This document shows, one piece after another, positions 27,809-63,280 of a stretch of DNA of 64,000 nucleotides (the first letter of the stretch is position 1; each line of letters begins with the position of its first letter). The notes under the pieces were generated by a model. The model was not told where the DNA came from. It was given only the letters and a program-made list of their open reading frames with translations, and ran no database searches. The position numbers and the translations under genes were made by a program. Source of the DNA: Tubulanus polymorphus (Eukaryota; Animalia; Nemertea). Location: positions 10,814,850-10,878,849 of the forward strand of contig NC_134029.1 of the NCBI RefSeq assembly GCF_964204645.1, read 5' to 3'.

Positions 27809-28040
27809 TCTGAGGATACAAAAGAAGATCACGCTACCACGATAATTGAACCTGGTACGAGCGAGTGCACACGCTCGTCCGGTGAGTATTTATTGGCGGC
27901 CATCTCCGCCAAACAGACACTTAAGTCATCACGTGAAGGATAAACCTATAACGTGAATTATAATGTAATAACGCGAAGGATTAACTCACAGCGTGAAGGT
28001 AAATGTCATGACGTGAAGGACTCACGTCATCAAGGATAAA

Positions 28041-28687
28041 CCTATTATGTCACCAGATGGCGTGCCAGTCGATCAGAAATATGTTCAGTTGTGCGCAGGC
28101 GTCATGACATGGTAACGTAAATAAGTTTCTGCGTATTAAGTTCGAATCCCGAAAATTATGAAGTATCGCTGGTTTACTTTGTTTGCCGCGTAAAAGGTTT
28201 CTTATCTCAAGTATGAAATAATAAACTTTGAAGGCTACAGTATCTATTTGTATGTGCTATTAGGTTCGAATCCCGAAATTGTGTAAAAGAAAAATATATC
28301 AGGATTTTTTCTTACACCGCTATATATCTCAAATTTTTAGCTTACTGCAAGACATAACCCGTTATCCAAAATACGAAAGATCTTCTTAAGCAATTATTGA
28401 CAAAAAACGAAGAATGCCTGATCCTGGTCCGTCCGCAGTTGTGAGCAAAACCGAGTCAAATCGAGACTCACATCTATGAATATTTTTTGGGATTAATAGC
28501 ACTGCTAATAGAATAAATCAGCGACATTGTGGTCATCAATTTGAAATAAGGATCAATATTTTGTGGGATTCGAACCTAATAGAAACTACAGTGACGCTCA
28601 TGCTGGAGTCATTAAAGTTCAGATGTCATGACGCCTGCGAACAACAAAATTTATTTCGACTGGCACGCCATATGGTGACATGATAGG
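28041..28687. mobile_element. MITE inserted in the left TIR
   Basis: TIRs CCTATTATGTCACCAGATGGCGTGCCAGTCGA...GCAGGCGTCATGACAT / ATGTCATGACGCCTGC...TCGACTGGCACGCCATATGGTGACATGATAGG; absent from the right TIR. Confidence 0.8.
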
Positions 28688-28688
28688 G

Positions 28689-28834
28689 GAGTAATAGGGA
28701 ATATGGGGGTTCAGATCAAAGGTCGAGAAGTCGAGTTCATAAAAAATGAAAAATATATTCTCGCACACTCAAATTTATTTTTTATGAACTCGCCCTCTCA
28801 ACCTTTAATCTCAACCCCCATATTCCCTATTCCT
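28689..28834. repeat. ~145-bp palindrome (Sola3-like MITE) in the left TIR
   Basis: GAGTAATAGGGAATATGGGGG...CCCCCATATTCCCTATT; mirrored copy at 52263-52416. Confidence 0.75.
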
Positions 28835-28904
28835 TTTAAAATATTCATATATATGAATATGATTAACTTCTAAAATCAATTTTAATAGAAAATTGGATAT
28901 TAAA

Positions 28905-31900: not shown

Positions 31901-32886
31901 TGAAGTTTTATTTGAATCAAGGAATGGTTCTAAAAAAAGTACATAGATATATTTCATTTAGTCAATCTAAATGGTTGGTTGAAAAATATATAGATTTTAA
32001 CACCAAACAGAGAACTAAAGCGAAAACTGATTTTGAGAAAGATTTCTTCAAGTTAATGAATAATGCATTCTATGGTATGACCTGTGAAAATATTAGAAAT
32101 AGAAATGATATTGAGTTAGTTAGTAATGGTAAAAGGATAAGGCATTTACAAACATATCCTAAATTTATTGGTAACAGAATATTTGATAAAAATTTAGCTG
32201 CTGATAAAATGAAAAGAACTTCTATGAAATTTAATCAACCAATTTATGTTGGTGCTTCAGTTTTAGAAATATCAAAATTATTGATGTATGAATTCTATTA
32301 TAACGTATTACAGCCTCATTTTGGAGAAAAGCATATAGAAATCTTATATTTTGATACTGACAGTTACATATTAAAGATTAAAACTAATAACATAACAGAT
32401 GATTTAAAAACATTAAAACATCATTTTGATTTCAGTAACTATCCAAAAGCTCATGAATTGTTTAACAATGATAATAAAAAAGTGCCCGGTAAATTCAAAC
32501 ATGAATTAGGTGGTGAAGAAATGATAGAATTAATAAGTATTAGATCTAAAATGTATTCATATAAAACCAAAACTCATGAAGCTAAAAAGTTAAAAGGAAT
32601 TACCAAAAGCGTAGTAGAAAAGAATATTCATTTCAAAGATTACATCAATTGTATATTTAATGAAGAAGTTAGAAAACATAAGATGAAATGTTTAAGATCA
32701 GAAGATCACGAGATGTTCATTGAAGAGATAGAAAAGGTTAGTTTAAATCCTTTCGATGATAAAAGATATATTTTAGATGATGGAAATCATACAGTAACTT
32801 ATGGCTGTAATTTAGGTGAATATCTAAAATTTAAAAGAGAAGAAGAGAAAGAAAAGGAAATTATTAAAAGGATTATTACATGTTAA
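28905..32886 (+). pseudogene. polB: Protein-primed family B DNA polymerase with N-terminal C2H2/U1-type Zn fingers and an endonuclease VII insert; multiple frameshifts and stops
   Basis: ExoI VIYGDFES, ExoII IFHNLSGYDAHLFI, ExoIII YSKSDVLLL, motif A YIDANNLYGWAM, motif B KLMNNAFYG, motif C YFDTDS, C-terminal LNPFDDKRY; CFYC...RDHDHLNGKFRGAAHENCN EndoVII signature. Confidence 0.93.
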
Positions 32887-32926
32887 TCGGCTTTAATTCA
32901 ATTTCAATAAAACATATCTTATTAAA

Positions 32927-33280
32927 ATGGAGAGTAAAGAAGCACACAGTGAGAACAACAAATCATTTCTAGATAGAATAAAAGATATCACAAATGCTAA
33001 ATCAGTAGATTATAGATTTAAGAAGTTAACAGAATTAACAATTCATAAGTAATATCTAATTACTAATATTGATACAGTTACTAACAAATGTGGAGATAAA
33101 TTAGTTATTCACTTAGAATATGAAGGATTAAAAGGAAATACATATAAAATCAAAACATATTTACCAGATAGATTTCATAGATTATCAAGTGAAGATTTAG
33201 AAGAATTATTTTCAGGTGATTTCTATTTCATATATAGGGGTAAGAATGAAAAAGGGCACCATGAAATAGATTTCGAATAA
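32927..33280 (+). pseudogene. Small (~117 aa) protein after PolB, possibly OB-fold ssDNA-binding; one internal stop
   Basis: ATG in ATTAAAATGG context; MESKEAH...KTYLPDRF...FYFIYRGK...EIDFE*; fold is inferred from position and beta-rich pattern. Confidence 0.5.
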
Positions 33281-33294
33281 AATATGTAAAATAA

Positions 33295-34042
33295 ATGGTA
33301 GAATTAAAAGAATACAGAATATTTGTTGATTCAAGAAGACTTACAAATTATAAATCACATAATTTACTAGTACAATTAGATAGAGAATTTAAAAATTGTG
33401 TAGATTTAAAATTAGTAAATGTAAGTTTATGTAATTCTTTTTATAATATATCGGATAAAAGTATTGAACATAGAGTCTTTTTAATTCATGACAGAAATAA
33501 GAATAGATGGTTTCATCTTTATCTTAAACCTGGATTATATAATTTAGAAACATTAGCTCAAGAAATAAATAAAAGAGCACGCTCAAAATGGGCGCATCTG
33601 CTGGATTTGGATTATGACTTATTAAAAGTGATAGCTCTGATAAAGTAAGAATAAAATTAGGCAATGATGATCAACATCAATTTCTAGTTAAAAAACCTTT
33701 AGCTAAAATTTTAGGAATTAACCCAGATGTAAGGTAATGCTGATGCTACACCAAACTTAATACCTTTTACACACTTTTATATTTATTGCAATTTAAATGA
33801 TCCTACAAAGACATTTGAAGCAACTAAAGATACAATTTGTAGTTCTGGTTTATTGAATATTTTACCATTGAAGAATGTTAAAGAATTTGGAACGCAAATA
33901 AATTATAATTTAGCCGAGTGCGATTTCAAACCATGCATTCCTCAATTTAATCATTTTAGATTAGAAATTAGAAATCAAAATGGATACTTAATTGATTTGA
34001 ATAACTTTCCTGTGATAACATGAATTAGTTATAAGATGTTAA
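33295..34042 (+). pseudogene. Minor capsid (penton-like, single jelly roll) protein, frameshifted
   Basis: IFVDSRR...SLCNSFYNI...LKPGLYN...HFYIYCNL...LEIRNQNGYLIDLNNFPV pattern typical of polinton/PLV pentons. Confidence 0.75.
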
Positions 34043-34065
34043 GAGTAATTTTTCGCTATATAAAT

Positions 34066-34407
34066 ATGAATATAACTGTTGGACCGAGTATATGTTTTGG
34101 GTTTGATTTTAAACATGGTAAAGAAATGAGATTTAAACTAAATGATGTAATTATTGATATTAAACGCGAATCATTTAATAATGCATCAATGATTAATAAA
34201 AGAAATTATAATGTAGAAAAAGTAATTGATTTAATCAAAACACCTTTAGAATATTATGAATTAAATGAAGATGGAATAATCGATGATATTAAAAACATAT
34301 TAACTGAAATATATGATAATCATAAAAGTAGTAATGAAATAAATGTTGAAATAATTATAACTAAGATAACTAAATATTTTGAAGATAGTAATTTTTTTGA
34401 TAAATAA
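34066..34407 (+). CDS. Hypothetical viral protein (~113 aa)
   Basis: Open frame between the penton and the next gene; its stop overlaps the next TAAATG. Confidence 0.55.
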   Translation: MNITVGPSICFGFDFKHGKEMRFKLNDVIIDIKRESFNNASMINKRNYNVEKVIDLIKTPLEYYELNEDGIIDDIKNILTEIYDNHKSSNEINVEIIITKITKYFEDSNFFDK

Positions 34408-34629
34408 ATGAGTGATAATAAGTGGATAATAACTGGATTATATAATGGTGCCTTACTATCAGTTGGAACTGTTGGTTAATCAATGGTATTAAAAAAAGTA
34501 TTAAAAATGGGAAGTGTTAATGTTGATAGATTTGATATAAATGATATTTTAAAATTAACATTAGCAGTTACTTTATCTAATTTAACTATTGATTATTTGG
34601 AAAAACAAAAATATATTCCTCCTATATAA
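34408..34629 (+). pseudogene. Small hydrophobic protein (73 codons, one internal stop)
   Basis: TAAATG start; MSDNKWIITGLYNGALLSVGTVG*SMVLKKV...DILKLTLAVTLSNLTIDYLEKQKYIPPI*. Confidence 0.6.
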
Positions 34630-34653
34630 ATGCGTAATTGTTTTGTTAAATAA

Positions 34654-35076
34654 ATGGCATCTACAGTTATAACTATTATAGGATGGGCAATTGTTAACGC
34701 TTTAGCATTTACTGGTGGTGGTTATTTATTTAAACATATTGATAAAAAATGTTCATTATCAGAACAAAAAAGACACAACTTATCGTTAGAAAAGTATAAT
34801 AAAGCAGCCGAAGAATATAGAGAAAAGAGACAAAACTATATGGATTACATCAATAAAGAATTATATAACCAGAAAATTACACATAGAGATTTTCAATCAG
34901 TTGATGATGCAATGAGTTTATACAACGCAGTAACAAATAAAGAAAAATTAAATCTATATAAACCTAAATTATCGGATTATTATACACCAAGTAAAGAACA
35001 ACAGAAATATGAAAAAATTTGGATTTTAGGTGGAACAGTTATTGTTATATTTGTAGCATATAAATTTACTAATTAG
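34654..35076 (+). CDS. Putative membrane-anchored virion protein (140 aa)
   Basis: TAAATG start; hydrophobic N-terminus (IIGWAIVNALAFTGGGYLF), coiled-coil-like middle, C-terminal hydrophobic segment (IWILGGTVIVIFVAY). Confidence 0.7.
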   Translation: MASTVITIIGWAIVNALAFTGGGYLFKHIDKKCSLSEQKRHNLSLEKYNKAAEEYREKRQNYMDYINKELYNQKITHRDFQSVDDAMSLYNAVTNKEKLNLYKPKLSDYYTPSKEQQKYEKIWILGGTVIVIFVAYKFTN

Positions 35077-37016
35077 TAATTTTTCTTTCTAAATAAATGG
35101 AGGATAAAGTTGATAATATTGATATTATTCCTCACGATATAAATAAAACTAAATTAAAACTATATTTGGAAAAACAAATAATCGAATTTGAAAATGACTT
35201 AAAGATAAAAAAGAAAAAATATTTAAAATCTAAAATTATCTAAATTATTTTATTATCAGTGGTTCAGTTCCAATAAGTTCTGTAATAACATTTCTAGCAT
35301 TAATCTCACCATTAACACCTTTAGCTATCTCAATTGGAGCTTTAGGTTTAAGTTCAAGTGTATTAACCGGAATAAATTCAAAATTAAATTTAGCTGCCAA
35401 GCAGCGATGACGGGTTTTCTGCAAAGATGGGAATTGTAGTAAATTGAAATATCGATACATAGAATAAAATGCATTGACAGATTCGAACCTAATATGCTAC
35501 CACTGTGTAAACGTCAAATATGATTCAGCTTTGAAACCGAACATACGCGGACGTACAATCAACAAATATTAATTCATTTGACCAGGCATTTATTTTGGCA
35601 TTCAAACATCATGATACTGTATTATCACCATGCTTAAAAATGGATCTGTCCTATTAAGAACTCATTTGAAGCACCTGCGGAGTCGATAGATTGAGTGAAT
35701 TTACAGATAAGAACGTATTATGATTTAGAATAGATTTAAGAAGTTAATGTTTTTAATGAAATATTTGAATAAATACATATTTTGTAGTGTAGATTCAATC
35801 AATAAATTATGAATTGATCTGGTCTGGGTTTCCGTTTGATGTTGGTTTTTGGCTTTTATGGATTACAAATTCTTTAGTGATAAACAATTGATACCTGCAA
35901 CATGTGTGTAAATCAAACCTATTCCACTAGTTGCGTGTGTTTCCTAATAAACGGGAGAGTCACTCTTGATCTGAGTTATTAGAAAAATAATGTTCATTTA
36001 GTTATAGAAATTCATTGCCTTTTTGGAAATTCTGTAATAATATTTGTTCCGTCCTGATTTTTATTACTGTATGAACCAATGATATGCTTTGTAAATATGA
36101 TGTAATAAAATAAGTTTGAATTTGAATTAAATTTGAACATGAATATCAAGCATAACTTGTTTTTTCAATTTGTCTTTTGTTAACAGTTCCAGAGTTTCAA
36201 TTACAATCAAATCCAAATTGGCTAAAAAGTACATATGACTAAATGAAATGAACCGTTAGTTACTGCAAACCTAATCCAGTGTTATGTCGATCGTGTTGAA
36301 TCACTTTCCTTGAGTTGAAAGAATCAGATCTTCTATGGTGCAACATCGGTCGAAGAGAGATATGTTAGTGTTGACTGTCCTTGACCATCTAACTGCATGC
36401 GTTTGACATTGGAATCAGCATCATACCCATTTGAACTGCAAAATATTCATACAACATGAAAACGTACAGTACATGTATACAGTTCTCAAACTTTCACCGA
36501 TGTTGGATATTTGAATGAACGTTGGGCTTATTTCAGTATTCTAAAGCAGGAAATAATAAGCCCAATCAATAGGCCCTATTCCCATTGGAAAAGATTGTAT
36601 AATGCGTACGCTATACCGTACACTTATCAGTCAAGAATGGAGAAATCGGTATACCAAACCTACGAACAGCAAAATGTACAGGCCTACAATGATTTCTGGT
36701 ATACAAGCCGTGACCACATGAACGTTTTGGTTTGACTATTAATGTCAGCAGGTCAGAGAAGGCCTGGCCAAATTTAATCACATGGCTCAAATCAATTAGC
36801 CTTTCTGCGTGTGAATACTTCACTATTGCTTTAAAAATAGGCCTATCGAGTGAATTAGTACATAGACTGAATTAGACTTTAGGCTAGTCCTGAGCAAATC
36901 CTATCCATGTTATAATTGCACCAGTTATATTAACATCACTGTAGGGCCGACGAGAGGGAGAAAGTTGTGTTTGTAGCACATAGGCATGGTAGGCTTGTCG
37001 TACTCACTTAATACTT

Positions 37017-37480
37017 AAAACGCTGTTGTTACCTGTACGTGACTGTACGGTAATTTCTACAGGTTAGCCGTATGTGAGTATGTTGACGCTCAGACTTGCA
37101 ATATTGGGATTCGAAACCAAACGAAAAAAAAGTCCAGTTGTAGTCCAGTGATTTACCCACTGTGCCACAGAACGTAAATTAATTAAATTTGATTTACAAA
37201 TAGCCTAGCCTCACCTAACCCAAACTCTATTCTTTCACGCATGCGCGTTTGCAGATTATAGGATTTCACGTATGGCGTTTTTAGGGAACTCACGTACGGT
37301 TAACCTGTGGATATCACCGTACAGTCAAGTACGGGTAACAACTTCGTACTTAAAAAATTGTATTGGCTACTAAGAACTCACGTACGGCGTTAGTAGGGAA
37401 CTCACGTACGGTTTACCTGTGGAGATCACCATACAGTCACGTACGAGTAATAACTACGTACTAAAAATGGTATTGGCTAC
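37017..37480. mobile_element. MITE with TIRs and a duplicated right arm; contains a tRNA-derived (A-box/B-box) segment on the minus strand at ~37106-37168
   Basis: GTTGTTACCTGTACGTGACTGTACGG / CCGTACAGTCAAGTACGGGTAACAAC; minus-strand GTGGCACAGTGG...GGTTTCGAATCCCA. Confidence 0.55.
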
Positions 37481-37721
37481 TATACAATAGGCCTATAGAC
37501 AAATAAATACCGGTACTGCGGTAGGCTTTCTTAGCTTCCACACTTCACAACCGAACCAACTGACCAACCAGTATATTTAGTCCCAGTACGCACCAACCGG
37601 CACAGGCCTAACACTGTTTGTCAACTGTGTGTACCGTTGTAGGCTATCGATATCGATAATCACCTGATACTTTTCTGTCGTTTGTTTTCTCTCTGAGACG
37701 AACGTAATTCTAGTAGCAAAC

Positions 37722-39008
37722 GGTAGAAAGTTTCTTTTGTCCAATGTCGTATAGCGCCGCCGCGGTCGAAAATCGAACTAATCTGTCAAGTCGATAATTT
37801 TCTAAGTGAGAAGACGCCGCGTTCAGTTCGCGGTACACTGTACGTACAGTTTTTCGATACACTGCTGTTCAACAAATTTGTTTTGAAGTTGAAGTTCACA
37901 GCGCGCTATTCAGTTTTCAGAAGTAGAGGGCTAAAATAACATCATTCGTAAGATCTCAGATTGAATATTTTCATCAGATTCAGAGCTCAGTTCATTGTAT
38001 AAAATATGTTATTTCATGTATTAGACAGTTACTTCTATTACTCTGACAGGAGTTTTTATGTCATAATTTTTTTTACCTCATGTGTAACTCAATTATAGCA
38101 GAGTTGATAGTTAAATTATCAATTATTAATTTATAAATAAATTAGTATTATTAATCTAATTATTGGATTGATTATTATTAAGAGATATGACATTATAAAC
38201 ATATATATAATGCACAGATATGGATGTTATATATAATGCAAAGATATGGATGTTATAATGATAATGTATTTCTACTCGCATAGAAATGAGAGTAAATTTT
38301 TCCTGTTTGGATATTCTAAAAGCTTATAAGTCCTTTGCCAAGGATATGAATGGTTTGTGATGATATTATGTTAACTAAATTCATTTGTTGGTTGAACGAT
38401 TTCAATTAATATCGCAATATTTAGCATTCGTGATATAATTAATATGATAGAGATATGGCCATTTGTCTATTGTTTATGTTAGCAAAAGATTGCATTTGAT
38501 ATAGAAGGCTTTAAAATGTTTTGATGTATGGTTGAGATTTTCAAAATAAATGTTATGCTTACATGAGATAATTGGAACTAGATGTTTTATTTCATTTTTA
38601 TCAAGTATCGATGGATGAATGTCTTTCGACGATGTGCAGTTAGCCCATTAGAGTTTGCCTTAAAATACTTTACTCTCAGTCTAAGCTGAATTTAATTCAT
38701 ACCACCGTTACAGTACCATAAAATTCACACAAAATCTTTAGCGTCATTGGAATAGGACGTCCCCTGTTTCACATCCGGCAGGTCTGTTGACGGTGGGTAA
38801 GTTTAATAAGGTACACCAAATCTATTAAAACGATCGCTATTTTAAAATCAAATCATCCCGAAGAAAAATGGGGATTCGAACCTATCGGATATATACTGGT
38901 ACTCAGCGTCTTTCCACTTAACAAAACATCGTCAATAACATTAGTTCTTATTATTGCTAAGTAGCGGCGCTACCGGTACTGTCGATCGGACATTAGAAAC
39001 TTTCTACC
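37722..39008. mobile_element. MITE-like segment with imperfect terminal inverted repeats
   Basis: GTAGAAAGTTTCT...GTCC...TAGCGCCGC vs GCGGCGCTA...GGAC..AGAAACTTTCTAC. Confidence 0.45.
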
Positions 39009-42000
39009 TTTTGCATTCTGCAGTAGCCTTTCGCGACTCAACGACCTTGATTTAAACTTGATCAATTCAAAATCTGTTTATTGACGCTTTTGGTTACATG
39101 AACTGATCAGCAATATACTTAAATAAAATAACCGGAATAACAAAAAATCAAAAATATTAAAGAGGTAACAAACAAATGCCCGTAAACCTGTCAGACACGA
39201 GAACGCCGGACTCGTAAACTCTTGGACTCGGACCCGCTGAGCAATAAATTCATAAAATTGACTTTGAAATTGATTGTGGAGAAGAGAGGGAATTATTTGA
39301 TAGCTCTTCCTCGAAAAGAAGAGAGAAATATCGGAAAGAAAACACAAGATGGCTACTAATTGAACGGAGCCAAATTTCCGATGTTTACGGCTCGACAGTG
39401 CCTTTATAACGTGGATTTATCAAAATTCCCATGCAGTATCTGGAGATTGAAGTGAGCTGAAGGATATCATACGGATTGTATCGGCGACAGCGGTAAGGTA
39501 AGGAAGCCTTTACACTATTAACAAAAACTATGTGGAAAAGGGAAAAAAAATAATAATAATCACGCGAATTTCAATAGGGTTTTCTGTGAAGAAACAGAAA
39601 ACCCTAAATATAAAAAGTTATAAAGAAAAAATAAAATCTAATATAAAAGAAATTAATAAATTAAAAAATACATTAGATTATATAATAATGATAATATAAC
39701 AGTTGAAGAACAGGATAAATTATTAAAAGAATTAATTAATTATTTATTTTTTTATTATATAAATGGGGTTTCCAAAAAGCTTTCCAATATAATAAATCAA
39801 TTAAATATAATATTCCAGCAATAGATTTTAATAAAGATATTTCATATAGAAATTAAGTTTTAGATTCATTAATTAATTTAGATATTTATGTTACTGAAAC
39901 TAATTATTCTAATGCAAAGATGGAAAACATATTTCATGTATATTTAATTAATTTTAAAAAATTGAAAGATGAAAAACAATGGTTATTAAAATCTAATATG
40001 AAATATTGGCAGAACCAATTAAATTTTGCAGTTTATTGTGCAACAACAGGATGTGGAATTAGTTGGAATGATCATTTGAATAATTCAAAATATGAATTAA
40101 TTCAAAGTTTATTTAGATTCCATACTTATTTTCAAATAAGATTAATAATAAATGAATTAGAGACTCCTTTGCCAGGATCTAGAGATTTTAAAGAATTAGA
40201 TAATAATATTAATTTATCAAAGTTTTATAAAATTTGTAATGAATTTAATATAGATATAAATATTCTGATTTTAGAACAAAAATTGGAACAATAAGATTAC
40301 TTCCTTGCCCTGAAAATGTTGCAGCATATTGTACACTTCCCATACCATCTAATAGTTTTTATAATATCTATAATAATAAATTAGGTTATGGTAAAATAGA
40401 AACAAAGGATTTAGAAACACTAAATTTCAATAAATTACCGAAATTCTATGATAATTTAAAACAAGAAAACATTAATGGTTGGGTTTATTTTATTTTAGAA
40501 AATAGTGAAGGTTTTACTAAATCAGGTATACAAAGAATAAATCAATCAATTAGAACTTATTTGATATGTATTCTAGGTGCACAGGTTGTAACAAGATCCC
40601 CAATAATAGGAAATTTAAATACATCATTTGATACACAAAAACAATTTAAAGTTTTATTTGAAGATTCTATTCATAATGATAAAAATAGATCGATTCCAGA
40701 AAATATAGTCAGGTACCAAATTTATTTAGATAAATCTCATGTAAGATGAAATTATTGTATAGGACCTAATTTATTAATTATTTCTGATGATTTAATATTA
40801 AAGATGGAAAATATAATTAGGGTTTTCTGTTACATCACAGAAAACCCTATTGAGATTCGCGTGTTTCTTATTATTATTATTATTATTATTATTTTTTTCC
40901 ACACATTTTTTGTCAAAAGTACATAGGCTTTTTTACATTACCGCTGTTGCCGATACAATCCGTCTGATATCATTCAGCTCAGTTCGATCTACAAATACTC
41001 CGTGCGAATTTTGAAGAATCAACGTTACAAAAGCACTGTCGGGCAGTAAACATCGAAAATTGAGCCCCATTCAAAAAGCCGACATGTTTTTCTAAGTCGT
41101 CTTTCCGAAATCTACCGCGCGTTTCTTGTCACATCGATTATCAATTCAAGCATAAATTAACAAATTTATTACCCAAAGATTGCACATTCTGTCGCGGTTT
41201 TTAAAAACTAATTTTAACAATAACCCATTTTCCTCATCAAATTATAATACCAATACACAGGAAATTTACTACTTTAGATTTTAAAAGCACTGTCGAGCCG
41301 TAAACATCGACAAATCGACGTGTGTCACTACATCGTCGTTCCGGGAATCAGCTGCGAGTTTCTCCTCATTCTGAGAATCAAATCGAGTACAAATTAATTT
41401 ATTACTACCAGTGATTGGGCTGCGGGCGTCAAGCAGTTAATTTAGCAATACCTATTTTTCTTTACCAAATTTACCGTGTTTTTACTAAGATAAATGTACC
41501 GGGGAGTCGTAGGCCTAAACTAAACACGCCGAAGAGATTATAGGGGAGAAAAGCTGTTATGTCGACGAGGTATCAAAATAAAACAATATATTACTTTATT
41601 CGGCCGCGGGCCTCCATATCAATACCATCAATATTCTATATTTCCTACAGTACATACCGATCATTGTCAAATCCACAAGGTATTTACTAAATACAAGTAT
41701 AAAGCACAGTCGTATCCGTATGCTGGACTCACACTTGACATTCGGAGTAAGCGTTCGCTGTGGGGGAAAGGAGATCGTTCGCTGGGTCACATGAAGTGTT
41801 TATCGAGTTTTACGCGACTTTAAAGTTTTAGTATGGTGGCTGATAAGATAACAAAACACGAATATGCAAATGAGGGCGACATTACGACAAAACGACAAAA
41901 CTAAAATAACGCGAGAAAACAATGATTTTGATTTTGTCGCCCGCGACAATTCATTATTTTGGTTTTATCGCCCACGACAATTCATTACTTTGGTTTTATC

Positions 42001-45000
42001 GCCAGCGACAATGCATTATTTTGGTTTTGTCGCCCGCGACAATTCTTCTTTTTGGTTTTGTCGCCAGCGACAATTCATTATTTTGGTTTTATATTTTGTT
42101 TTTGTCGTCTGCGACAATTTTCTTTTTTGATTTTGTCGCCCGCGACAATTCAATATTTTGGTTTTATCGCCTGCGACAATTCAATATTTTGGTTTTATCG
42201 CCCGCGATAATTCAATATTTTGGTTTTATCGCCCGCGATAATTCATTATTTTGGTTTTGTCGCCCGCAACAATTCATTATTACGGTTTTATCGCCCGCGA
42301 CAATTCATTATTTTGGTTTTGTCGCCCGCGACAATTCACCATTTTGGTTTTGTCGCCCGCGACAATTCATTATTTTGGTTTTATCGCCCGCGACAATTCA
42401 TTATTTTGGTTTTATTGCCAGCGACAATTCATTATTTTGGTTTTGTCGGCCCGACAATTCTTTTTTTGGTTTTGTCGCCCGCGACAATTCATTAGTTTGG
42501 TTTTGTCGCCCGCGATAATTCAATATTTTGGTTTTGTCGCCCGCGACAATTCATTATTTTGGTTTTATCGCCCGCGACAATTCAATATTTTGGTTTTATC
42601 GCTCGCGACAATTCATTATTTTGGTTTTGTCGCCCGAGACAATTCATTATTTTAGTTTTATCGCCCGCGAAAATTCATTATTTTGGTTTTATCGCCCGCG
42701 ACAATTCATTATTTTGCTTTTGTCGCCCGCGACAATACACCATTTTGGTTTTGTCGCCTGGACAATTCACCATTTTGGTTTTGTCGCCCGCGACGATTCA
42801 TTATTTTTGTTTTGTCGCCCCGACAATTCTTTTTTTGGTTTTGTCGCCCGCGACAATTGTCGCCCGCGACAATTCAATATTTTGGTTTTATCGCCCTCGA
42901 CAATTCATTGCTTTGGTTTTATCTCCAGCGACAATTCATTATTTTGGTTTTGTCACCCGCGACAATTCTTGTTTTTGGTTTTGACGCCCGCGACAATTCA
43001 TTATTTTGGTTTTATACTTTGTTTTTGTCGCCTGCGACAATTTTTTTTTGGTTTTGTCGCCCGCAACAATTCAATATTTTGGTTTTGTCGCCCGCGACAA
43101 TTCATTATTTTGGTTTAATCGCCCGCGACAATTCAATATTTTAGTTTTATCGCCTGCGATAATTCATTATTTTGGTTTTATCGCCCGCGACAATTCATTA
43201 TTTTGGTTTTATCGTCCGCGACAATTCATTATTTTGGTTTTGTCGCTCGAGACAATTCATTATTTTAGTTTTATCGCCCGCGACAATTCATTAGTTTGGT
43301 TTTATCGCCTGAGACAATTCAATATTTTGGTTTTATCGCCTGCGACAATTCAATATTTTGGTTTTATCGCCCGCGATAATTCATTATTTTGGTTTTGTCG
43401 CCTGAGAAAAATCATTATTTTGGTTTTATCGCCAGCGACAATTCATTATTACGGTTTTATCGCCCGTGACAATTCATTATTTTGGTTTTATCGCCCGCGA
43501 CAATTCATTATTTTGGTTTTGTCGCCTGAGAAAATTCATTATTTTGGTTTTATCGCCCGCGACAATTCATTATTACGGTTTTATCGCCCGCGACAATTCA
43601 TTATTTTGGTTTTGTCGCCTGGACAATTCACCATTTTGGTTTTGTCGCCCGCGACAATTCATTATTTTGGTTTTATCGCCCGCGACAATTCATTATTTTG
43701 GTTTTATCGCCAGCGACAATTCATTATTTTGGTTTTGTCGGCCGCGACAATTCATTATTTTGGTTTTATCGCCCGTGACAATTCAATATTTTGGTTTTAT
43801 CGCCCGCGATAATTCATTATTTTGGTTTTATCGCTCGCGACAATTCATTATTTTGGTTTTGTCGCCCGAGACAATTCATTATTTTGGTTTTATCGCCCGC
43901 GACAATTCATTATTTTGCTTTTGTCGCCCGCGACAATTCATTATTTTGCTTTTGTCGCCCGCGACAATTCACCATTTTGGTTTTGTCGCCTGGACAATTC
44001 ACCATTTTGGTTTTGTCGCCCGCGACAATTCTTTTTTTGGTTTTGTCGCCCGCGACAATTCATTAGTTTGGTTTTGTCGCCCGCGACAATTCATTTATTT
44101 GGTTTTATCGCCCGCGACAATTCAATATTTTGGTTTTATCGCCCGCGATAATTCATTATTTTGGTTTTATCGCTCGCGACAATTCATTATTTTGGTTTTG
44201 TCGCCCGAGACAATTCATTATTTTGGTTTTATCGCCCGCGACAATTCATTATTTTGGTTTTATCGCCCGCGACAATTCATTATTTTGGTTTTGTCGCCTG
44301 AGAAAATTCATTATTTTGGTTTTATCGCCCACGACAATTCATTATTACGGTTTTATCGCCCGCGACAATACATTATTTTGGTTTTGTCGCCTGGACAATT
44401 CACCATTTTGGTTTTGTCGCCCGCGACAATTCATTATTTTGGTTTTATCGCCCGCGACAATTCATTATTTCGGTTTTATCGCCAGCGACAATTCATTATT
44501 TTGGTTTTGTCGCCCGCGACAATTCATTATTTTGGTTTTATCGCCCGCGACAATTCAATATTTTGGTTTTATCGCCCGCGATAATTCATTATTTTGGTTT
44601 TATCGCTCGCGACAATTCATTATTTTGGTTTTGTCGCCCGAGACAATTCATTATTTTGGTTTTATCGCCCGCGACAATTCATTATTTTGCTTTTGTCGCC
44701 CGCGACAATTCATTATTTTGCTTTTGTCGCCCGCGACAATTCACCATTTTGGTTTTGTCGCCTGGACAATTCACCATTTTGGTTTTGTCGCCCGCGACAA
44801 TTCATTATTTTGGTTTTGTCGCCCCGACAATTCTTTTTTTGGTTTTGTCGCCCGCGACAATTCATTAGTTTGGTTTTGTCGCCCGCGACAATTCATTATT
44901 TTGGTTTTATCGCCCGCGACAATTCAATATTTTGGTTTTATCGCCCGCGATAATTCATTATTTTGGTTTTATCGCTCGCGACAATTCATTATTTTGGTTT

Positions 45001-46280
45001 TGTCGCCCGAGACAATTCATTATTTTGGTTTTATCGCCCGCGACAATTCATTATTTTGCTTTTGTCGCCTGGACAATTCACCATTTTGGTTTTGTCGCCC
45101 GCGACAATTCATTATTTTGGTTTTGTCGCCCCGACAATTCTTGTTTTTGGTTTTGACGCCCGCGACAATTCATTATTTTGGTTTTATACTTTGTTTTTGT
45201 TGCCCGCGACAATTTTTTTTTTGGTTTTGTCGCCCGCAACAATTCAATATTTTGGTTTTGTCGCCCGCAACAATTCATTATTTTGGTTTTATCGCCCGCG
45301 ACAATTCTATATTTTAGTTTTATCGCCCGCGATAATTCATTATTTTATTTTTATCGCCCGCAACAATTCAATATTTTGTTTTTATCGTCCGCGACAATTC
45401 ATTATTTCAATTATGTCGCTCGAGGCAATTCATTAATTTGGTTTTATCGTCCGCGACAATTCATTATTTTGGTTTTGTCGCTCGATACAATTCATTATTT
45501 TGGTTTTATCGCCTGCGACAATTCATTAGTTTGGTTTTGTCGGCCGTGACAATTCAATATTTTGGTTTTATCACCCGCGACAATTCATTAGTTTGGTTTT
45601 GTCGCCTGCGACAATTCTTTTTCAGTCCACTTGGGACTTTAGTCCCAGCGGGCTATTGTGTTCACTTTTCGTTCGTCCGTCCGTCCATAGACGGAATCCA
45701 GTTTTTTTGGGAAGTTTTGAAGACGCTTCAAGGTCATTGGTTTTAGCATGTGGCCATCAGGGGGCGTTGAATAATACAATAACTTAGTATTGCTATATTA
45801 TATTTGTACCAAGGCATATTTTGTTACCATGATCAATTGCAAAGTTGTAGTTCATGACATCGTCTATGATTGTGGTGAGTTTTTAAGGACATTAGTTATT
45901 CCATATAGTCACTAGGGGGCGTTGAATAGTAGAAAAGCTTAGTTTTTCCTTATTAGATTGGTACCTAGGCATAGTTTGTTACCATGATCCATTGCAAAGT
46001 TGTAGATCATGACATCGTCTATGATTGTGGTGAGTTTTTAAGGACATTAGTTATTCCATATAGTCACCAGGGGGCGTTGAATAGTAGAATGGCTTAGTAT
46101 TTCCTTATTAGATTGGTACCTAGGCATATTTTGTTACTATGATCAATTGCAAAGTTGTATTTCATGACATGTACTACGATTGTGGTGAGATAAATGAAGA
46201 AATCCCACACTTCGAATTTGAAATTATACTATCAAATTTATTATTACGAAACCACAACGTTTCGGCTGTTGACTAACAGC

Positions 46281-46412
<132 letters not shown>

Positions 46413-46413
46413 T

Positions 46414-46455
46414 CCACCTGATGATGGCTGTTAGTCAACAGCCGAAACGTTGTGG
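46414..46455 (+). ncRNA. Minimal type I hammerhead ribozyme
   Basis: CCAC-CTGATGA-T-GGCTGTT(AGTC)AACAGCC-GAAA-C-GTT-GTGG: stem I CCAC/GTGG, 7-bp stem II, conserved core, palindromic AACGTT stem III. Confidence 0.8.
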
Positions 46456-47958
46456 TTTCGTAATAATAAATTTGATAGTATAATTTCAAATTCGAAGTGT
46501 GGGATTTCTTCATTTATCTACAGTTTACACGGATTATAGTGTTTATTCGACAACTAACTGATTATGGTGAGTTTTAAGGTCATTGGGTTTTGCATATGGT
46601 CACCAGGGGCGTTGAATAGTAGAATAACTTAGTATTTCCATATTAAATTGGTAACGAGGCATATTTCGTTATCACAATCAATTACAAAATCATAGCTGCT
46701 CACATGTTCTATGATTGTGGTGGGTTTCAAGGTCATTGGTTTTTGTATATGGTCACTAGAGGGCGTTATATATTGAAATTGTTAGATTGTTGAGCATTTG
46801 AAACCACTTCCCAAGTGAGCATGGTGTCCCTGGACCCCTAGTTTGGTTTTGTCTCCCGCGACAATTCATTATTCTGGTTTTGTCGCACGCAACAATTCAA
46901 TATTTTGTTTTTGTCGTCCGCGACAATTCATTATTTTGGTTTTATCGCCGCGACAATTCAATATTTTGGTTTTAACACCCGCGACGATTCATTATTGTGG
47001 TTTTATCGCCGCGACAATTCAATATTTTGGTTTTAACACCCGCGACAATTCATTATTGTGGTTTTATCGCCCGCGACAATTCATTATTTTGGTTTTATCG
47101 CCCGCGACAATTCATTATTTTGGTTTTATCGACCGCGACAATTCATTATTTTTGTTTTGTCGCCCGTGACAATTCAATATTTTGGTTTTGTCACCCGCGA
47201 CAATGCATTATTTTGGTTTTGTCCCCGTGGTTTTGTCGGAACATTAAGTTTTTTGGTCGAACAGTGTGTTAAGGTCGTTTTGGAAATTTACTCGGTCTGA
47301 TATATTTTGGATTACTGTGTATGTCATTTGTCAGGACATTAAACAGAAGACGACTTAGGATACTACCTTGCGTGACTCCACTAGTTGGACCGTCTCATTC
47401 CAAGATGAGGCGTTCCGTTGATTTCGGTTACAAGTATCCGTTCAGAGATAACTGCTGAGCCATTTTAACGACCTATCATTGATACTGTTTCCTAATAGAC
47501 TCTTTAGTAATGGCTGATGTTGAACCTTATCAAATGCTTTGTTGAAATCCACCGTTGAACAGGATTCTAAGACTGTGCAGAAAACCCGTTATCGCTGCTT
47601 TGCAGCTATATTTGGTTATAATAATTTGATTAAAACTGCAACAATAAATAATTCATTAAGATTAAATGACATAAATAAAATGATTATTACTGCTCCATAA
47701 TTAATGGAAGGTGAAAAAATAAAAAACATATTCAATCAACAGAAACTAAAACTAAGAATATTCAATTAAATAATGATTCTAAAATAAAAGATTACAATAC
47801 ATCAGAAAATGTAAAAACTGATATTATTCAACATGATATAATTAAAACTAATAATGATAATAAATCACATGAAAATACTAAATTAGCTAAATTAACGTGT
47901 ATAGGAATTGTAATAGTAGGAATATTATATTTCAAATTTTAATTTTTATAAGATATAA

Positions 47959-49394
47959 ATGGATGTAGAAGGTGGAGAAGATTATGAAATGGGAGAAATG
48001 GGAAATAATAATGAAGGATATATTGATGATGATTATAATGATGATGAAACTAATATTGATAATGATGATGGATCAGCATATAATACTAATTTAGCAGATA
48101 GTGGTTCTAAAGCCCCATCCACAGACGAGTTTGATAGAAGAACTAAATCGAGAATAAATCCTGAAAATGAAAATCCAGATTTAGTAAAACAAAATTTAGA
48201 AAATAATGAATTTATATATAATTTCAAACCTATATTTGAAAGATCTGGATATAATATCAATGATAGAGGTGCTAGATATTTAGTAAGAGAATTAAAATTT
48301 TTAGATGGTGAATATTATTATCATTTGAAAGATGATTGTTATATTGATATCTCTTATAAAAATCAAAATAAAATATAAGCAGAATCAACTTTGAGTAATT
48401 TAGAACCATCTAGAATTAAAAGAATAAGTAATAGTAATGAAATGGAAAATGTTTCACAAGAAGAAATAAATCAAAATAAAAGAGTATTTAAACAAAGAAT
48501 TAATGACCTTAATTTGAAACAATCAATAATAATTTAGAAACAGAAACAACTTCTGGTAAACTTAAATCAAATAAAGATCCAATTGAAAAACTATTACCAA
48601 ATGGATTACTTGATGCAACGAATCAAGAATTAGAAGATTTAAATATATTTTCTGATAAAGCAATCAGAGAAATTATTAGTATAAGACTTGCATCTGATAA
48701 AATTGCGCATGATAAAAGTATAAGAGATTTTAAAATTAGAACTTTAGAAAACTATAGAACTGATAAAATGAAAGAAATAGAACAATTAAAATTAGATAGA
48801 GATAATAAAGTTATTGACGAAATCGAATTTAGAAAAAAGAAATGCATATTTAGAAAAAGAAACAGATTATTTAAAATATAACATAGAATTTCAGAAAGAA
48901 GAAATTTAATTGTTAAAAAAAATCATATCATTATAATGTTAATAGATTAAAAATTATTTTTAAAGATTTGTTGATAAAAGCAAATTCTGAAATATCATTA
49001 AAAGATAGAATAAAATTATTATTGAAGTTAGAAGGTATAACAATTCTTTCAATTCTAACAGCTGTAACTATGGTATTCACAAAAACAGGTTTAGCAATAT
49101 CAAATTCATTAAAATCTACCCCTACGTCCAATAAACCAGATAAACCCCCAAATGATAATAATTCTATACAAGATAAAGTGAAAGATGATTTTAAAAAATT
49201 AGCAAAATATTTATGGGAACTATCTAAAAAAATCTGCTGCTGCTTCACCAGGAATTATAGCATCAATTGTTGGTTTTATATTGAAATCTGCAGGAAATAC
49301 TATTAACTTTGCTGCAGAACATATTATTTTAATTTTAATTACAATTGTTAGTGCAATTATTTTTGGGTTAGTGAATATGATAAAAAATAAATAA
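47959..49394 (+). pseudogene. Large acidic/coiled-coil protein with C-terminal hydrophobic segments (putative virion membrane or entry protein)
   Basis: TAAATG start; acidic N-terminus; SLKDRIKLLLKLEGITILSILTAVTMVF...PGIIASIVGFILKSAG...IILILITIVSAIIF; several stops and frameshifts. Confidence 0.65.
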
Positions 49395-49414
49395 TTAATT
49401 TTTTTGTTAAATAA

Positions 49415-50606
49415 ATGAGTGGGAGTTATATAAATCCTTCTAAGAGTTCTAGAATATCTAATGCTATTAAGGCAGAAAGATCTCATCATATAATTACTCA
49501 TAATCCTTCTAATATTAATCCTGATGAAACTTTATATGTTAGAATTCCTCGATTAACACAAAATACTTTTTATGTTCCAAATAGTATTTATTTATCAGCT
49601 GATATAAAAGTAACTGGCCATGATAATAATTATGTTGTTGATAATGTTGGAAGATATTTGATTAAAAAATTAACTATAAAGATTGGTCCAGAAACAGTTT
49701 TCTCATTAGATGATTATAATTTATTTATGCATTATAAAGATTTATGGTTAACAAAAGAAAATAGAAATAATGTGATATTTTTAGGCATCCAATCAGAAAA
49801 CCATAATAAATTAAGATCAGAAGCTAATAATGCAATAATAACTAATGCTACAGATAATTTGATAAAAAAGATTTATGGAAGCAAATATAAAATTCCATTA
49901 GATTTTGAATTGATAGATAATAATGCACCTTTATATAAATACGCAATTCAAGAAGGTATTATATTTGAAATTACATTTGCTCCTGTTAATGAAATAGTAT
50001 TATCAAGTGTAATAAAAGATATGGGTTATAAATTATCGAATATATGTTTAGAATATGATGCAGTAACTGACGAAAATATTGCTAACACAATTCAAACTCA
50101 ATACAATCAAGGATTTTGATTATTATATGATTATATTGATAAATTTAAAACTGTAACTATTAATGCAAATGATGAAATAATTAATGAGAATATCAACTTC
50201 CCAAGAAGATCTATTAATTAAGGTATATTAATATTTTTTACCATTGCTACATATTCAAATGGCGCAATACAGGTTGATAATTATTATAATCCTGAAATAA
50301 CAAGAGTAGAAATAACTATTGAAGGTATAGCAAATAAAATATTCTGTCAAGGAATGAGAATGATTGATCAATGGCCAGAAATTAGAAAACATTTTATGAA
50401 TGAAAAAGTAAAATCATCTGATTTTAGAACGACAGAGGATAATTCATTACATGGTTCTGGGAAAAAAACTACAAAATACAAAAGATGGAATACAATTATT
50501 CATGACAAAGAAAAAAGGAAGTTTAAATTTCAAAATGCATATTTATATTGTATCTGACGCGCAATTAAATATTGTAAATTCTCAATTTAATAGTGTTATG
50601 TATTAA
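49415..50606 (+). pseudogene. Putative major capsid protein (double jelly roll)
   Basis: TAAATG start; ~390-codon beta-rich ORF: ITHNPSNINPDETLYVRIPRL...NVGRYLIKKLTIKIG...YKIPLDFE...LSNICLEYD...NFPRRS...LHGSG...DAQLNI; assignment by recalled pattern and context. Confidence 0.7.
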
Positions 50607-50638: not shown

Positions 50639-51463
50639 ATGGAGGCAGGTAAAGTATATAAACATATTCCATACATTGATAGACATGAAAATAATGATGG
50701 CTTATATAATGTAATACCTTGTAATATAGCTTTGATATTTGATCCTATTTTCAAAAATTATAAAACTAAACTAATAGAAATCGATAATAATAAAAGTTAA
50801 GTTTTTGATAATTTAAGTAATGAAATTGATAATAATGTTTTAACTTCTACATCTGATAATGTTTTACCTTCTACATATAATAATGAAATAATATTAGATT
50901 ATAGTGAAAATAGAAATTATTGTGGTTATTGTAAAGGTGAATTTTCAAACAGCCCATCAAATTGGAATAACCATATGAATACATTTGTACATATTACTAA
51001 TGTTATAAAACGCGTTGGTTTAAGAGAATTTATAGAACACCCATTTAGATATGTAACAAAGTTTGTTTCAAATAAAAAAGTAAATGGTAAAGATTTATAT
51101 AAAGATTTATTAGGTGAATTTTTATCTAAGGGACCTGAACACAGTAAAGCGGAATTAGATTTAACTGATGTTAATAAAATATTAGGATCAAACATTGTAA
51201 ATAAAATATTAAGACCAAACACTAAGAAAGAGGATAATGAAAATATAGTAACAGTTAAGCATATTGATAATGAAGATTATTTAGATACAGATTGGACGAA
51301 ACGTAAAGTAGTAACTATTAATGACGCAGTAGACAGGATGAAAAAGGATTATAATGAAGAAACTTATGATGATCCGGTAGATAGGTTTAATAGATTGTTA
51401 GAGTCTGATAAAGAATTGGAGAATGATGATGAAAATGATGTTAATTATCTCACATTCATATAA
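50639..51463 (+). pseudogene. Zn-finger (CxxC...H...H) protein, one internal stop
   Basis: NYCGYCKGEFSNSPSNWNNHMNTFVH reads in frame into the 50975-51463 ORF. Confidence 0.55.
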
Positions 51464-51489: not shown

Positions 51490-51795
51490 AATAGTTAATA
51501 AAAAAGGGGTTTTACGCATTTATATTTAGGTATCTAATACGTGTCTAATACGTATCTAATACGTATTTAAGTATTTATGTATCTAATATGTATTAATCTA
51601 AATAACCTTTATTATTTTCAAACTTAGTTGAAAAATACAAATATATTAGTTGAAAATTTAAAATAAATAATATATTTTCAAAAGGGGGTTTTAAGTATTA
51701 ATGTATCTAATACGTATCTAATACGTACTAAATACGTATTAAGGTATCTAATACGTATTTAATACATATCTAATACATAAATGCTTAAAATACCT
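51490..51795. repeat. Intergenic duplicated block with 11-bp TATCTAATACG repeats between convergent genes
   Basis: AAAAGGGGTTTT...(GTATCTAATAC)n occurs at ~51500-51600 and ~51680-51780. Confidence 0.7.
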
Positions 51796-52193
51796 TATTT
51801 TATAAATTTATATTCATAAGGAAATTGAAGCTTCAGAAGTAATTTTGAGCCTTTATGGTTCTTTAATTTATTCATATATTCATCATGTAATTCAGTAGGT
51901 ATTATTTGATTCTCTTCCAATTTTTTCCAATCTCTCATATATTCTGGATTATTTGCTCGCCATTGTTTTTTCAATTCTTTACATTTTTCTAGATTATTTT
52001 TATAATATTGTTTACTATTTTGATTATGGCAGCTTTTGCAGTTATGACGTAAACCATCTTTGCCGATCTTACGTTTATAATAATCTTTAAATGGCTTACT
52101 TTTTTTACATTTGCAACATGTCTTCTGATAAATATTTATAAAACCATAATTATTGTTTGTAATATCTATAGTTTGTGATTGTTCTGGCTCCAT
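51795..52193 (-). CDS. C4 zinc-finger protein of the type found N-terminal to phage/NCLDV HNH nucleases
   Basis: KTCCKCKKSKPFKDYYKRKIGKDGLRHNCKSC; the ATG lies at the inner edge of the right TIR. Confidence 0.65.
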   Translation of the reverse strand: MEPEQSQTIDITNNNYGFINIYQKTCCKCKKSKPFKDYYKRKIGKDGLRHNCKSCHNQNSKQYYKNNLEKCKELKKQWRANNPEYMRDWKKLEENQIIPTELHDEYMNKLKNHKGSKLLLKLQFPYEYKFIK

Positions 52194-52560
52194 TTTAATA
52201 TCCAATTTTTTATGAAAATAGATTTTAGAAGTTATTCATATTCATTTATATGAATATTTTAAGAGTAATAGGGAATATGGGGGGTTCAGATTAAAGGTTG
52301 AGAGGGCGAGTTCATAAAAAATGAAAAAATAATTCGAGTGTGCGAGAATTTATTTTTCATTTTTTATGAACTCGACCTCTCGACCTTTGATCTGAACCCC
52401 CATATTCCCTATTACTTAGGGGTATCCTTGATGACGAGAGGTGGTCCTTCACGTCATGACATTATCCTTCATGTTATGAGTTTATCCTTCACGTTATGGG
52501 TTTATCCTTCACGTGATGACTTAAACGTCTGTTTGGTGGGGATGGCCGCCCATAAGTATT
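52189..52560 (-). repeat. Right terminal inverted repeat with palindrome (52263-52416) and 20-bp CCTTCACGT sub-repeats
   Basis: Reverse complement of 27885-28040 plus 28690-28909. Confidence 0.9.
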
Positions 52561-63199: not shown

Positions 63200-63280
63200 T
63201 TAAAATATTCATATATATATGAATAACATTTAAATCATTGAACTTCTAAAATCAATTTTAATAAAAAATATAGTATTAAA

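What the first reader, a model, noticed from the sequence alone, without database searches (positions are those of the whole stretch)
33290..49420. Two-class start motif: TAAATG on structural genes, ATTAAAATGG on replication-type genes
Seen: ATGs at 33295 (penton), 34408, 34654, 35097, 39763, 47959 and 49415 (MCP) all sit in (A/T)ATAAATG, usually after a T-run. polB (28905, 63281), the gene after it (32927) and the terminal Zn-finger gene (52193, minus strand) instead use ATTAAAATGG. Established: TAAATG is the poxvirus late promoter/initiator, and the virophage mavirus shares its helper virus's late promoter. Inference: a temporal programme read by a cytoplasmic helper virus RNA polymerase, i.e. 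a virophage-like parasite or defence element in an animal genome.
Basis: partly seen in the sequence, partly recalled or inferred. Interest (0 to 1): 0.8.

Follow-up and report, generated by a model that had tools for sequence, protein, structure and literature searches.

The report
Polinton clade with poxvirus-type promoters

Summary
The motifs are real, and the pattern is wider than reported. The window holds a decayed Maverick/Polinton. In metagenomic relatives of its lineage, 42 of 47 homology-checked starts read TAAATG, against 0 of 66 in outgroup Polintons (0 of 19 AT-rich ones). The motif puts T at -3, the opposite of a Kozak bias. Only 2 of 78 such starts abut an upstream stop. A T peak at -12 (62 of 75 starts, against 46 of 141 non-start sites) lies within one base of the vaccinia late promoter and of salmon gill poxvirus starts. 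The two-class claim fails as written. Three of the four ATTAAAATGG sites are one terminal-repeat sequence. No relative uses four As (0 of 78), and relatives' polB genes use TAAATG. A weaker split by upstream core (T-run or A-rich) exists, but it groups the penton with polB. Best reading: all genes use a post-replicative promoter read by a helper nucleocytovirus, most likely pox-type. No helper, transcript or defence effect was shown, and prasinovirus-like contigs have a similar motif. I found no paper on this in nine searches. This scan reported the same idea earlier on another genome (e1-8580207).

The parts
27887..28909 (+). Left terminal inverted repeat (interrupted); true end and target-site duplication not determined
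   Evidence: blastn 28690-28909 vs 52416-52189 at 91%; 27887-28044 vs 52558-52417 at 75%
28880..28908 (+). polB start signal inside the TIR: A-rich core, T at -12, TAAAATGG
28905..32886 (+). Family B DNA polymerase gene, broken by stops and frameshifts
   Evidence: tblastn to the 1,250-aa ORFs of L052 and L065; Endonuclease_7 hit; family B motifs read by eye; no Pfam DNA_pol_B hit
32902..32930 (+). Start signal of the gene after polB: A-rich core, TAAAATGG
   Evidence: initiator shows no listed variant in about 300 reads, and a 150-read group has the three-A form
32927..33280 (+). Small gene (one internal stop), possible phi29-type single-strand DNA-binding protein
   Evidence: 32% to L001 ORF 125; Atlas lead PF17427 on 44% of a cluster at score 0.87, a lead only
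33270..33298 (+). Penton start signal: A-rich core, no T-run, TAAATG
33295..34023 (+). Penton (minor capsid) gene, broken
   Evidence: 49-58% to L001 ORF 565, whose model matches the mavirus penton (Foldseek E 7.6e-7; VIA Z 12.1, rmsd 3.1, 134 aligned)
34066..34407 (+).
   Evidence: L001 ORF 1333 aligns from residue 1
34408..34629 (+). Small conserved gene (75-aa family), T-run plus TAAATG; its TAA is also the upstream stop
   Evidence: 87% to L001 ORF 1733
34654..35076 (+). Intact 140-aa conserved gene, T-run plus TAAATG
   Evidence: 75% to L001 ORF 2014
35097..39743 (+). 144-aa family gene, T-run plus TAAATG, interrupted by about 4.2 kb of nested repeats
   Evidence: split alignment
39763..47942 (+). 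442-aa family gene of unknown fold, T-run plus TAAATG, interrupted by nested repeats and a 31-bp satellite
   Evidence: no fold match
47959..49394 (+). 485-aa family gene, T-run plus TAAATG, broken
49390..49418 (+). Major capsid start signal: 7-T run, T at -12, TAAATG
49415..50606 (+). Probable major capsid protein gene, broken
   Evidence: 72% to L001; weak Capsid_N hits in 12 of 32 relatives; not folded
50639..51463 (+).
   Evidence: 37% to L002 ORF 2461 from residue 1
51795..52193 (-). Chimeric ORF: TIR-borne start, Zn-finger piece, C-terminal 41 aa of the packaging ATPase
   Evidence: 68% over ATPase residues 164-204; no integrase hit anywhere in the window
52189..52558 (-). Right terminal inverted repeat, carrying the same start signal as polB
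63142..64000 (+). Start of a second copy of the element (TIR part and polB 5' end, ATG at 63281)
   Evidence: 86% over 859 nt to 28778-29605

Best explanation
This is a decayed Polinton from a lineage whose genes nearly all begin at TAAATG behind an AT-only core with a T at -12, and these sites are likely post-replicative promoters read by the RNA polymerase of a co-infecting large DNA virus, most likely a poxvirus relative. Shown: the motif, its layout, its restriction to one lineage, and its independence from base composition, Kozak bias and gene overlap. Inferred: transcription would start inside TAAAT and give almost no templated leader, possibly with a slippage-made poly(A) leader as in vaccinia. 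The element would stay silent until a helper infects the cell, then express polymerase, integrase, ATPase and capsid from the same promoter type, as a virophage-like parasite. A subset of genes in the closest relatives (polB in this host, penton, the gene after the capsid gene) has an A-rich core that may tune timing or strength, possibly intermediate-like, but this is not a structural versus replication split. This copy is broken and lacks its integrase, so it is a relic.
For: Lineage-specific: 31 of 35 (clade A) and 11 of 12 (clade B plus L029) checked starts, against 0 of 66 in the outgroup and 0 of 19 AT-rich outgroup starts (tree). It holds in loci of 36-44% GC: 25 of 28 closed ORFs. Anti-Kozak: purine at -3 in 3 of 35, against 58 of 66 in the outgroup. 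Not gene overlap: 2 of 78 abut a stop, 28 of 78 are head-to-head, and 16 of these lie 15-35 nt apart. Second element: T at -12 in 62 of 75 starts, against 46 of 141 non-start TAAATG sites, p = 1.6e-12. PMC11980589 (passages) describes TAAATG plus a T ten bases upstream for vaccinia late promoters. Salmon gill poxvirus locus L156 (named): 12 of 19 starts are TAAATG, with T at 0.75 at -14 to -12; the Polinton matrix scores them above shuffles, p = 0.007, best at a shift of 1 base. PMC12917281 (passages): the viral polymerase itself reads TAAA. No RNA polymerase family among the 61 proteins scanned or the 33. Precedents: mavirus (PMC8547959, passages) and entomopoxvirus-associated PLVs (PMC11296320).
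Against: No transcript start was seen and no helper was found. Prasinovirus-like contigs also have TAAATG at 17 of 42 starts and score p = 0.009 on the same matrix (best shift 2 bases), and a 251-kb unnamed large-virus contig has 7 of 12, so the motif does not single out poxviruses. Prasinoviruses lack their own RNA polymerase (recalled; one search was inconclusive on two fragments), so host polymerase II with viral factors might read such sites. Poly(A)-signal and splice-site depletion tests did not separate the lineage from the outgroup. No poxvirus gene family was found in the lineage beyond the shared A32-type ATPase. The starts are not independent (shared descent), the controls are small, and the tree is a quick search that leaves the monophyly of the TAAATG lineages unresolved. 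How a nuclear integrated copy would reach a cytoplasmic polymerase is unexplained.
Confidence: 0.62

Rival explanations
1. The sites are compact promoters read in the nucleus by host RNA polymerase II, helped by an element-encoded or host factor, so the element needs no helper virus.
For: Prasinovirus-like contigs carry similar starts and that group is recalled to rely on host polymerase. Several conserved genes of the lineage have no known function. AATAAA follows stops in 27 of 60 clade A genes against 15 expected. The family reached many copies in the host.
Against: The AATAAA excess is explained in part by the next gene's initiator. Sense-strand AATAAA is not depleted in coding sequence (164 observed, 171 expected), though the AT-rich outgroup is the same. 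A TATA-like core 12-25 bases from the ATG would place a canonical Pol II start at or after the ATG (established spacing, PMC5294985 and PMC7163114 passages). Head-to-head genes 15-35 nt apart leave little room for two Pol II complexes (inference). No transcription-factor family was found.
Confidence: 0.2
2. One reading: two promoter classes, TAAATG on structural genes and ATTAAAATGG on replication genes, form a temporal programme.
For: All 4 ATTAAAATGG sites in the window are at starts. An A-rich core recurs at 4 of 28 starts in the closest relatives, against 0.11 in shuffles. MPXV intermediate promoters prefer A upstream and late promoters prefer T (PMC11980589, passages).
Against: Two independent sites only. 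0 of 78 relatives' starts have four As. polB of L052 and L065 and the integrase and ATPase genes use TAAATG. The penton has the A-rich core in both the window and L001, while the L001 ortholog of the 32927 gene has a T-run. The A-core starts keep the T at -12 in 5 of 6 window sites, which vaccinia intermediate promoters lack. The core was defined after seeing the window, and base shuffles understate homopolymer runs.
Confidence: 0.1
3. The motif works at the level of RNA ends or translation: an in-frame stop that guards the start, or the upstream gene's AATAAA poly(A) signal overlapping the next start.
For: 27 of 72 starts with a neighbour contain AATAAA. 43 of 78 are in tandem.
Against: 45 of 72 lack AATAAA, 28 of 78 have no same-strand upstream gene, and a stop guard does not explain the fixed T at -12 or the exclusive use of TAA.
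Confidence: 0.06
4. Chance: AT richness plus an A-rich Kozak context.
For: The element is about 24% GC.
Against: p = 2.6e-6 in the window; 0 of 19 in AT-rich outgroup starts; 34 of 701 internal ATGs; 25 of 28 in GC-richer loci.
Confidence: 0.01

Closest known systems
Mavericks/Polintons (Polintoviricetes; 'adintoviruses', PMC8502044 and PMC11161782, passages)
   Same: TIRs, family B polymerase, penton, probable major capsid; rve integrase and A32-type ATPase in relatives.
   Different: Outgroup Polintons here have purine -3 Kozak starts and no TAAATG. The word 'promoter' has 0 occurrences in PMC8502044 (listing) and PMC11161782. No protease was found in the window or in L001.
Vaccinia and other poxvirus late and intermediate promoters (PMC11980589, PMC5294985, PMC12917281, PMC4542343, passages)
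   Same: TAAATG overlapping the ATG, an AT-only core, a GC-tolerant spacer, a T peak 12-13 bases before the ATG, and head-to-head promoter pairs.
   Different: The carrier has no detected RNA polymerase. Use is near-universal (about 90% of genes, polB included) with no early class. Start sites and poly(A) leaders are not shown.
Mavirus and EMALE endogenous virophages (PMC8547959, passages)
   Same: Integrating small dsDNA element whose upstream motif matches a large virus's late promoter; sister types carry different motifs.
   Different: Protist host, TCTA motif of CroV, known helper and shown defence. The capsid here does not match Sputnik-type Pfam families.
Entomopoxvirus-associated PLVs (PMC11296320: abstract, Introduction and word search)
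   Same: Polinton-like elements proposed as hyperparasites of poxviruses in animals.
   Different: Found in occlusion bodies of moths. The main text has 0 occurrences of 'promoter' or 'TAAATG'. I did not compare their sequences with this lineage.
Yeast cytoplasmic virus-like elements pGKL1/2 (PMC6211774, passages)
   Same: Linear elements with a TAAAN initiator that gives 5' poly(A) leaders.
   Different: They encode their own RNA polymerase, use an upstream ATNTGA element and have no capsid.

Membership tests
Maverick/Polinton | Terminal inverted repeats | tested here: met
   91% and 75% arms
Maverick/Polinton | [quoted passage not shown] | tested here: met
   Homology to full-length ORFs of L052 and L065 and family B motifs read by eye; no Pfam polymerase hit; protein priming itself not tested
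Maverick/Polinton | rve integrase | tested here: inconclusive
   Absent from this copy; PF00665 in relatives L001, L002, L004, L005, L029 and L065/L075
Maverick/Polinton | Packaging ATPase | tested here: met
   Only the last 41 aa remain here; PF04665 in L001 and L075
Maverick/Polinton | Single jelly-roll penton | tested here: met
   Model of the L001 ortholog matches mavirus, PBCV-1 and Sputnik pentons
Maverick/Polinton | Double jelly-roll major capsid protein | tested here: inconclusive
   Weak Capsid_N hits below the cut-off; no PDB sequence hit; not folded
Maverick/Polinton | Cysteine maturation protease | tested here: inconclusive
   No hit in the window or L001; Peptidase_C5 only in L063; contigs are partial
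Maverick/Polinton | 6-bp target-site duplication | not tested
   Termini not resolved
Poxvirus late promoter | TAAAT(G) overlapping the start codon | tested here: met
   42 of 47 checked starts
Poxvirus late promoter | T about 10 nt upstream of TAAAT among other Ts | tested here: met
   Peak at -12 from the ATG, one base from the stated position; 62 of 75
Poxvirus late promoter | Transcription starts inside TAAAT with a non-templated poly(A) leader | not testable with these tools
   No RNA holder listed
Poxvirus intermediate promoter | TAAA initiator, A-rich core, no T at the late position | tested here: inconclusive
   A-rich core present in a subset, but T at -12 is kept in 5 of 6 window sites
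Virophage (Lavidaviridae) | Virophage-type major capsid protein | tested here: not met
   0 of 32 relatives match Sputnik MCP Pfam families, while L064 does at E 4e-41; sequence-level test only
Virophage lifestyle | Promoter shared with a known helper; helper-dependent replication; reduced helper yield | not testable with these tools
   No helper identified for this host

The most novel reading that the evidence does not exclude
Animal Polintons are split into lineages by the promoter dialect of the large DNA virus they parasitise: a pox-type TAAATG lineage (this one) and sister lineages with an asfarvirus-type TATA initiator. Their promoters then predict undiscovered poxvirus relatives in marine invertebrates, and the many integrated copies act as a helper-triggered antiviral defence in an animal.
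Probability: 0.3. Interest if true: 0.9.

Novelty: new variant of a known kind. Interest (0 to 1): 0.7.

Why it matters
How animal Polintons are transcribed, and whether they are autonomous or virophage-like, is open. A lineage-wide poxvirus-type promoter makes this testable with a short reporter fragment and with 5' end mapping. It would extend the virophage principle to integrated elements of marine invertebrates, and it points to a helper virus worth looking for in these hosts.

Tried and rejected
No host assembly is held, so the genome could not be screened for other copies or for helper remnants. Scans of viral contigs with the capsid, ATPase and 140-aa families found no relatives. The polB scan gave 3 loci, of which L064 is a Sputnik-type virophage and was dropped from the counts. 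The genome-contig scan gave one outgroup fragment. No RNA holder listed; this says nothing about expression. Depletion of AATAAA and splice-site motifs did not discriminate. TTTTTNT depletion in clade A (observed/expected 0.42) is general homopolymer avoidance, because A-runs and other T-runs fall too, so I rejected it as evidence for poxvirus-type termination. No pox-early motif enrichment: 4 of 78 against 2.5 +/- 1.4. The 442-aa protein model (pLDDT 58) had no fold match. The gene after the capsid gene had no Atlas or PDB match. The deoxynucleoside kinase homolog search named no viral donor. The RNA polymerase search of the prasinovirus-like records was inconclusive, because they are fragments and two other records were not held. 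The literature search on poxviruses of marine invertebrates was too broad to use. The careful tree did not finish; the quick tree was used.
Full report
Observation. All coordinates check out. The seven starts read (A/T)ATAAATG, and ATTAAAATGG occurs four times in the window, each at the named ATG. In the element's AT-rich segments TAAATG precedes 37 of 512 ATGs; 7 of 11 independent starts gives p = 2.6e-6.

What the DNA is. A decayed Polinton spans about 27.9-52.6 kb, with inverted repeats at both ends, nested host repeats, and a second copy beginning near 63.1 kb. Gene order from 32927 to the capsid gene is colinear with the intact 11.5-kb contig L001. The penton was confirmed by folding the L001 ortholog. 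The major capsid call rests on weak Pfam hits. The integrase and most of the ATPase are missing; the ORF at 52193 joins a TIR-borne start and a Zn-finger piece to the ATPase's last 41 residues. A DNA run with the same species label covers the element at several hundred to about a thousand reads deep in 12% of the run, mostly at 85-95% identity, so there are many diverged copies (no copy number without a genome size). Earlier unchecked notes call the host a ribbon worm; I did not test this.

The two-class claim. 28905 and 52193 are the two arms of one repeat and 63281 is the same start in copy two, so the 4-A class has two independent sites. At 32927 no variant of 15% or more is listed across the initiator in about 300 reads (10 rows hidden). 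A separate group of 150 reads keeps the A-rich core and shows the three-A form. None of 78 relatives' starts that have TAAA next to the ATG uses four As. polB in L052 and L065 starts at TAAATG, as do most integrase and ATPase genes. What does separate the window's starts is the upstream core: seven have a T-run of 4-7 and six have an A-rich core. The A group holds polB, the TIR fusion, 32927, the penton and 50639. The core recurs at 4 of 28 starts in L001-L005 (0.11 in shuffles), including the L001 penton. It is not at the L001 ortholog of 32927 and not in more distant members. The motif was defined after seeing the window and the null is lenient, so this is suggestive only.

The lineage test. 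A metagenome scan gave 61 loci. Thirty-six with usable capsid rows went into a quick tree with the window; the rest were short or broken fragments and were left out. Starts were counted only if their N-termini aligned with a homolog under 85% identical, after removing near-duplicates. TAA directly before ATG: clade A 31 of 35, clade B plus L029 11 of 12, outgroup 0 of 66, AT-rich outgroup 0 of 19. With long singletons added: 46 of 54, 13 of 15 and 1 of 95. The outgroup has a purine at -3 in 58 of 66 starts, clade A in 3 of 35. Internal out-of-frame ATGs follow TAA in 34 of 701. In loci of 36-44% GC, 25 of 28 closed ORFs keep the motif. Only 2 of 78 abut an upstream stop, and 28 are head-to-head, 16 of them 15-35 nt apart. 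The starts share descent, so the p values overstate independence. Clades A and B, L029, L015 and L018 sit in a polytomy, so one origin is not shown.

Architecture. Upstream of TAAATG the lineage has an almost AT-only block at -18 to -12, a T peak at -12 and a GC-tolerant spacer. T at -12 occurs in 62 of 75 starts and in 46 of 141 non-start TAAATG sites of the same loci. PMC11980589 describes vaccinia late promoters as TAAAT(G) with a conserved T ten bases upstream, and intermediate ones as TAAA with an AT-rich core and no such T. PMC12917281 reports that the viral polymerase reads TAAA directly. A scan of IMG/VR for a head-to-head version of the motif returned 90 loci, most of them unrelated. 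Among them were a lineage member (L075, 6 of 6), salmon gill poxvirus (named), an unnamed 251-kb contig and a set of prasinovirus-like contigs (label from my recall of their genes). In 20.9 kb of the poxvirus, 12 of 19 starts are TAAATG with T at 0.75 over -14 to -12. The Polinton matrix scores the poxvirus starts above shuffles (n = 10, p = 0.007), but also the prasinovirus-like starts (17 of 42 TAAATG, p = 0.009) and the 251-kb contig (n = 5, p = 0.025); non-start sites do not score (p = 0.19). The layout is therefore promoter-like and typical of large DNA viruses, and poxviruses are the best documented match, not the only one.

Mechanism. Shown: motif, layout and lineage restriction. Inferred: transcription starts within TAAAT; the polymerase is not the element's own (no polymerase family, on partial contigs); and since polB, integrase and ATPase share the signal and no early motif is enriched, the whole genome depends on a helper's post-replicative machinery. 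Independent tests for nuclear versus cytoplasmic transcription were uninformative. Nothing here bears on defence.

Literature. Nine searches listed no paper describing TAAATG or poxvirus-type promoters in Polintons; only the top listings were seen and most subscription journals are not held. Seen as passages from word searches: PMC11980589, PMC5294985, PMC12917281, PMC4542343, PMC10328495, PMC6211774, PMC8502044, PMC8547959, PMC11161782, PMC7163114, 10.1101/2025.10.09.676808, 10.1101/2024.03.23.586382 (egoviruses, with basal branches in marine sediments, are possible helpers) and 10.64898/2026.10.13.758929. PMC11296320 was seen as abstract, Introduction and word search. No supplements were read, and those of PMC11296320 and PMC8502044 could bear on novelty. 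An earlier unchecked note of this scan (e1-8580207) reports the same idea in another genome, with a poxvirus polymerase subunit in some copies. I reached my reading before seeing it and did not find such a subunit in 61 proteins.

Verdict. A real, lineage-wide promoter signature in an animal Polinton. Helper-virus transcription is likely (0.62), the three-A versus four-A temporal split is not supported, and the helper's identity and any defence role are open. New variant of a known kind; interest 0.7.

Noticed in passing
L018, L015, L020: Sister Polinton loci without TAAATG have TATA within 22 nt of the ATG at 12 of 13 checked starts (about 3.3 in shuffles), and AT-rich outgroup loci at 16 of 25 (9.5 expected). 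This resembles the ASFV late initiator and short leaders (PMC7163114, passages). Found after the fact, small numbers.
   Followed up: partly
L120 (251-kb IMG/VR contig): Unnamed large-virus-like contig (Ran-like GTPase, kinase, collagen) with TAAATG at 7 of 12 starts and T at -13/-12; two of these starts were selected by the search pattern.
   Followed up: partly
L001:10343-10981 and L007:2898-3377: Two members of the TAAATG lineage carry a deoxynucleoside kinase (PF01712), an unusual accessory gene for a Polinton (recalled); no donor was identified.
   Followed up: partly
window 51460-51795: Array of 11-bp near-palindromic repeats between the two convergent genes; similar letters follow the ATPase stop in L002 and L004. 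Possible terminator or replication signal.
   Followed up: no
window 28875-28882 and 63251-63258: The polB upstream region contains AAAATTGA on the opposite strand, the mimivirus early motif (PMC5294985); one site in two copies, may be chance.
   Followed up: no
window 62796-63198: The second copy's upstream region is an imperfect 400-bp inverted repeat (76%), and 28690-28834 is self-complementary at 80%.
   Followed up: no
window 5170-24294: About 19 kb of an 89-bp satellite with higher-order spacing just upstream of the element.
   Followed up: no
window 41925-47227: A 31-bp satellite (about 130 copies) inserted in the element, itself split by a 155-bp repeat and a (CAT)44 run flanked by 101-nt perfect inverted arms.
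   Followed up: no
window 58319-60496: Fragment of a reverse-transcriptase element (weak RVT_1 hit).
   Followed up: no
L064: A virophage with a Sputnik-type capsid whose polymerase is 42% identical to this element's polB C-terminal part.
   Followed up: no
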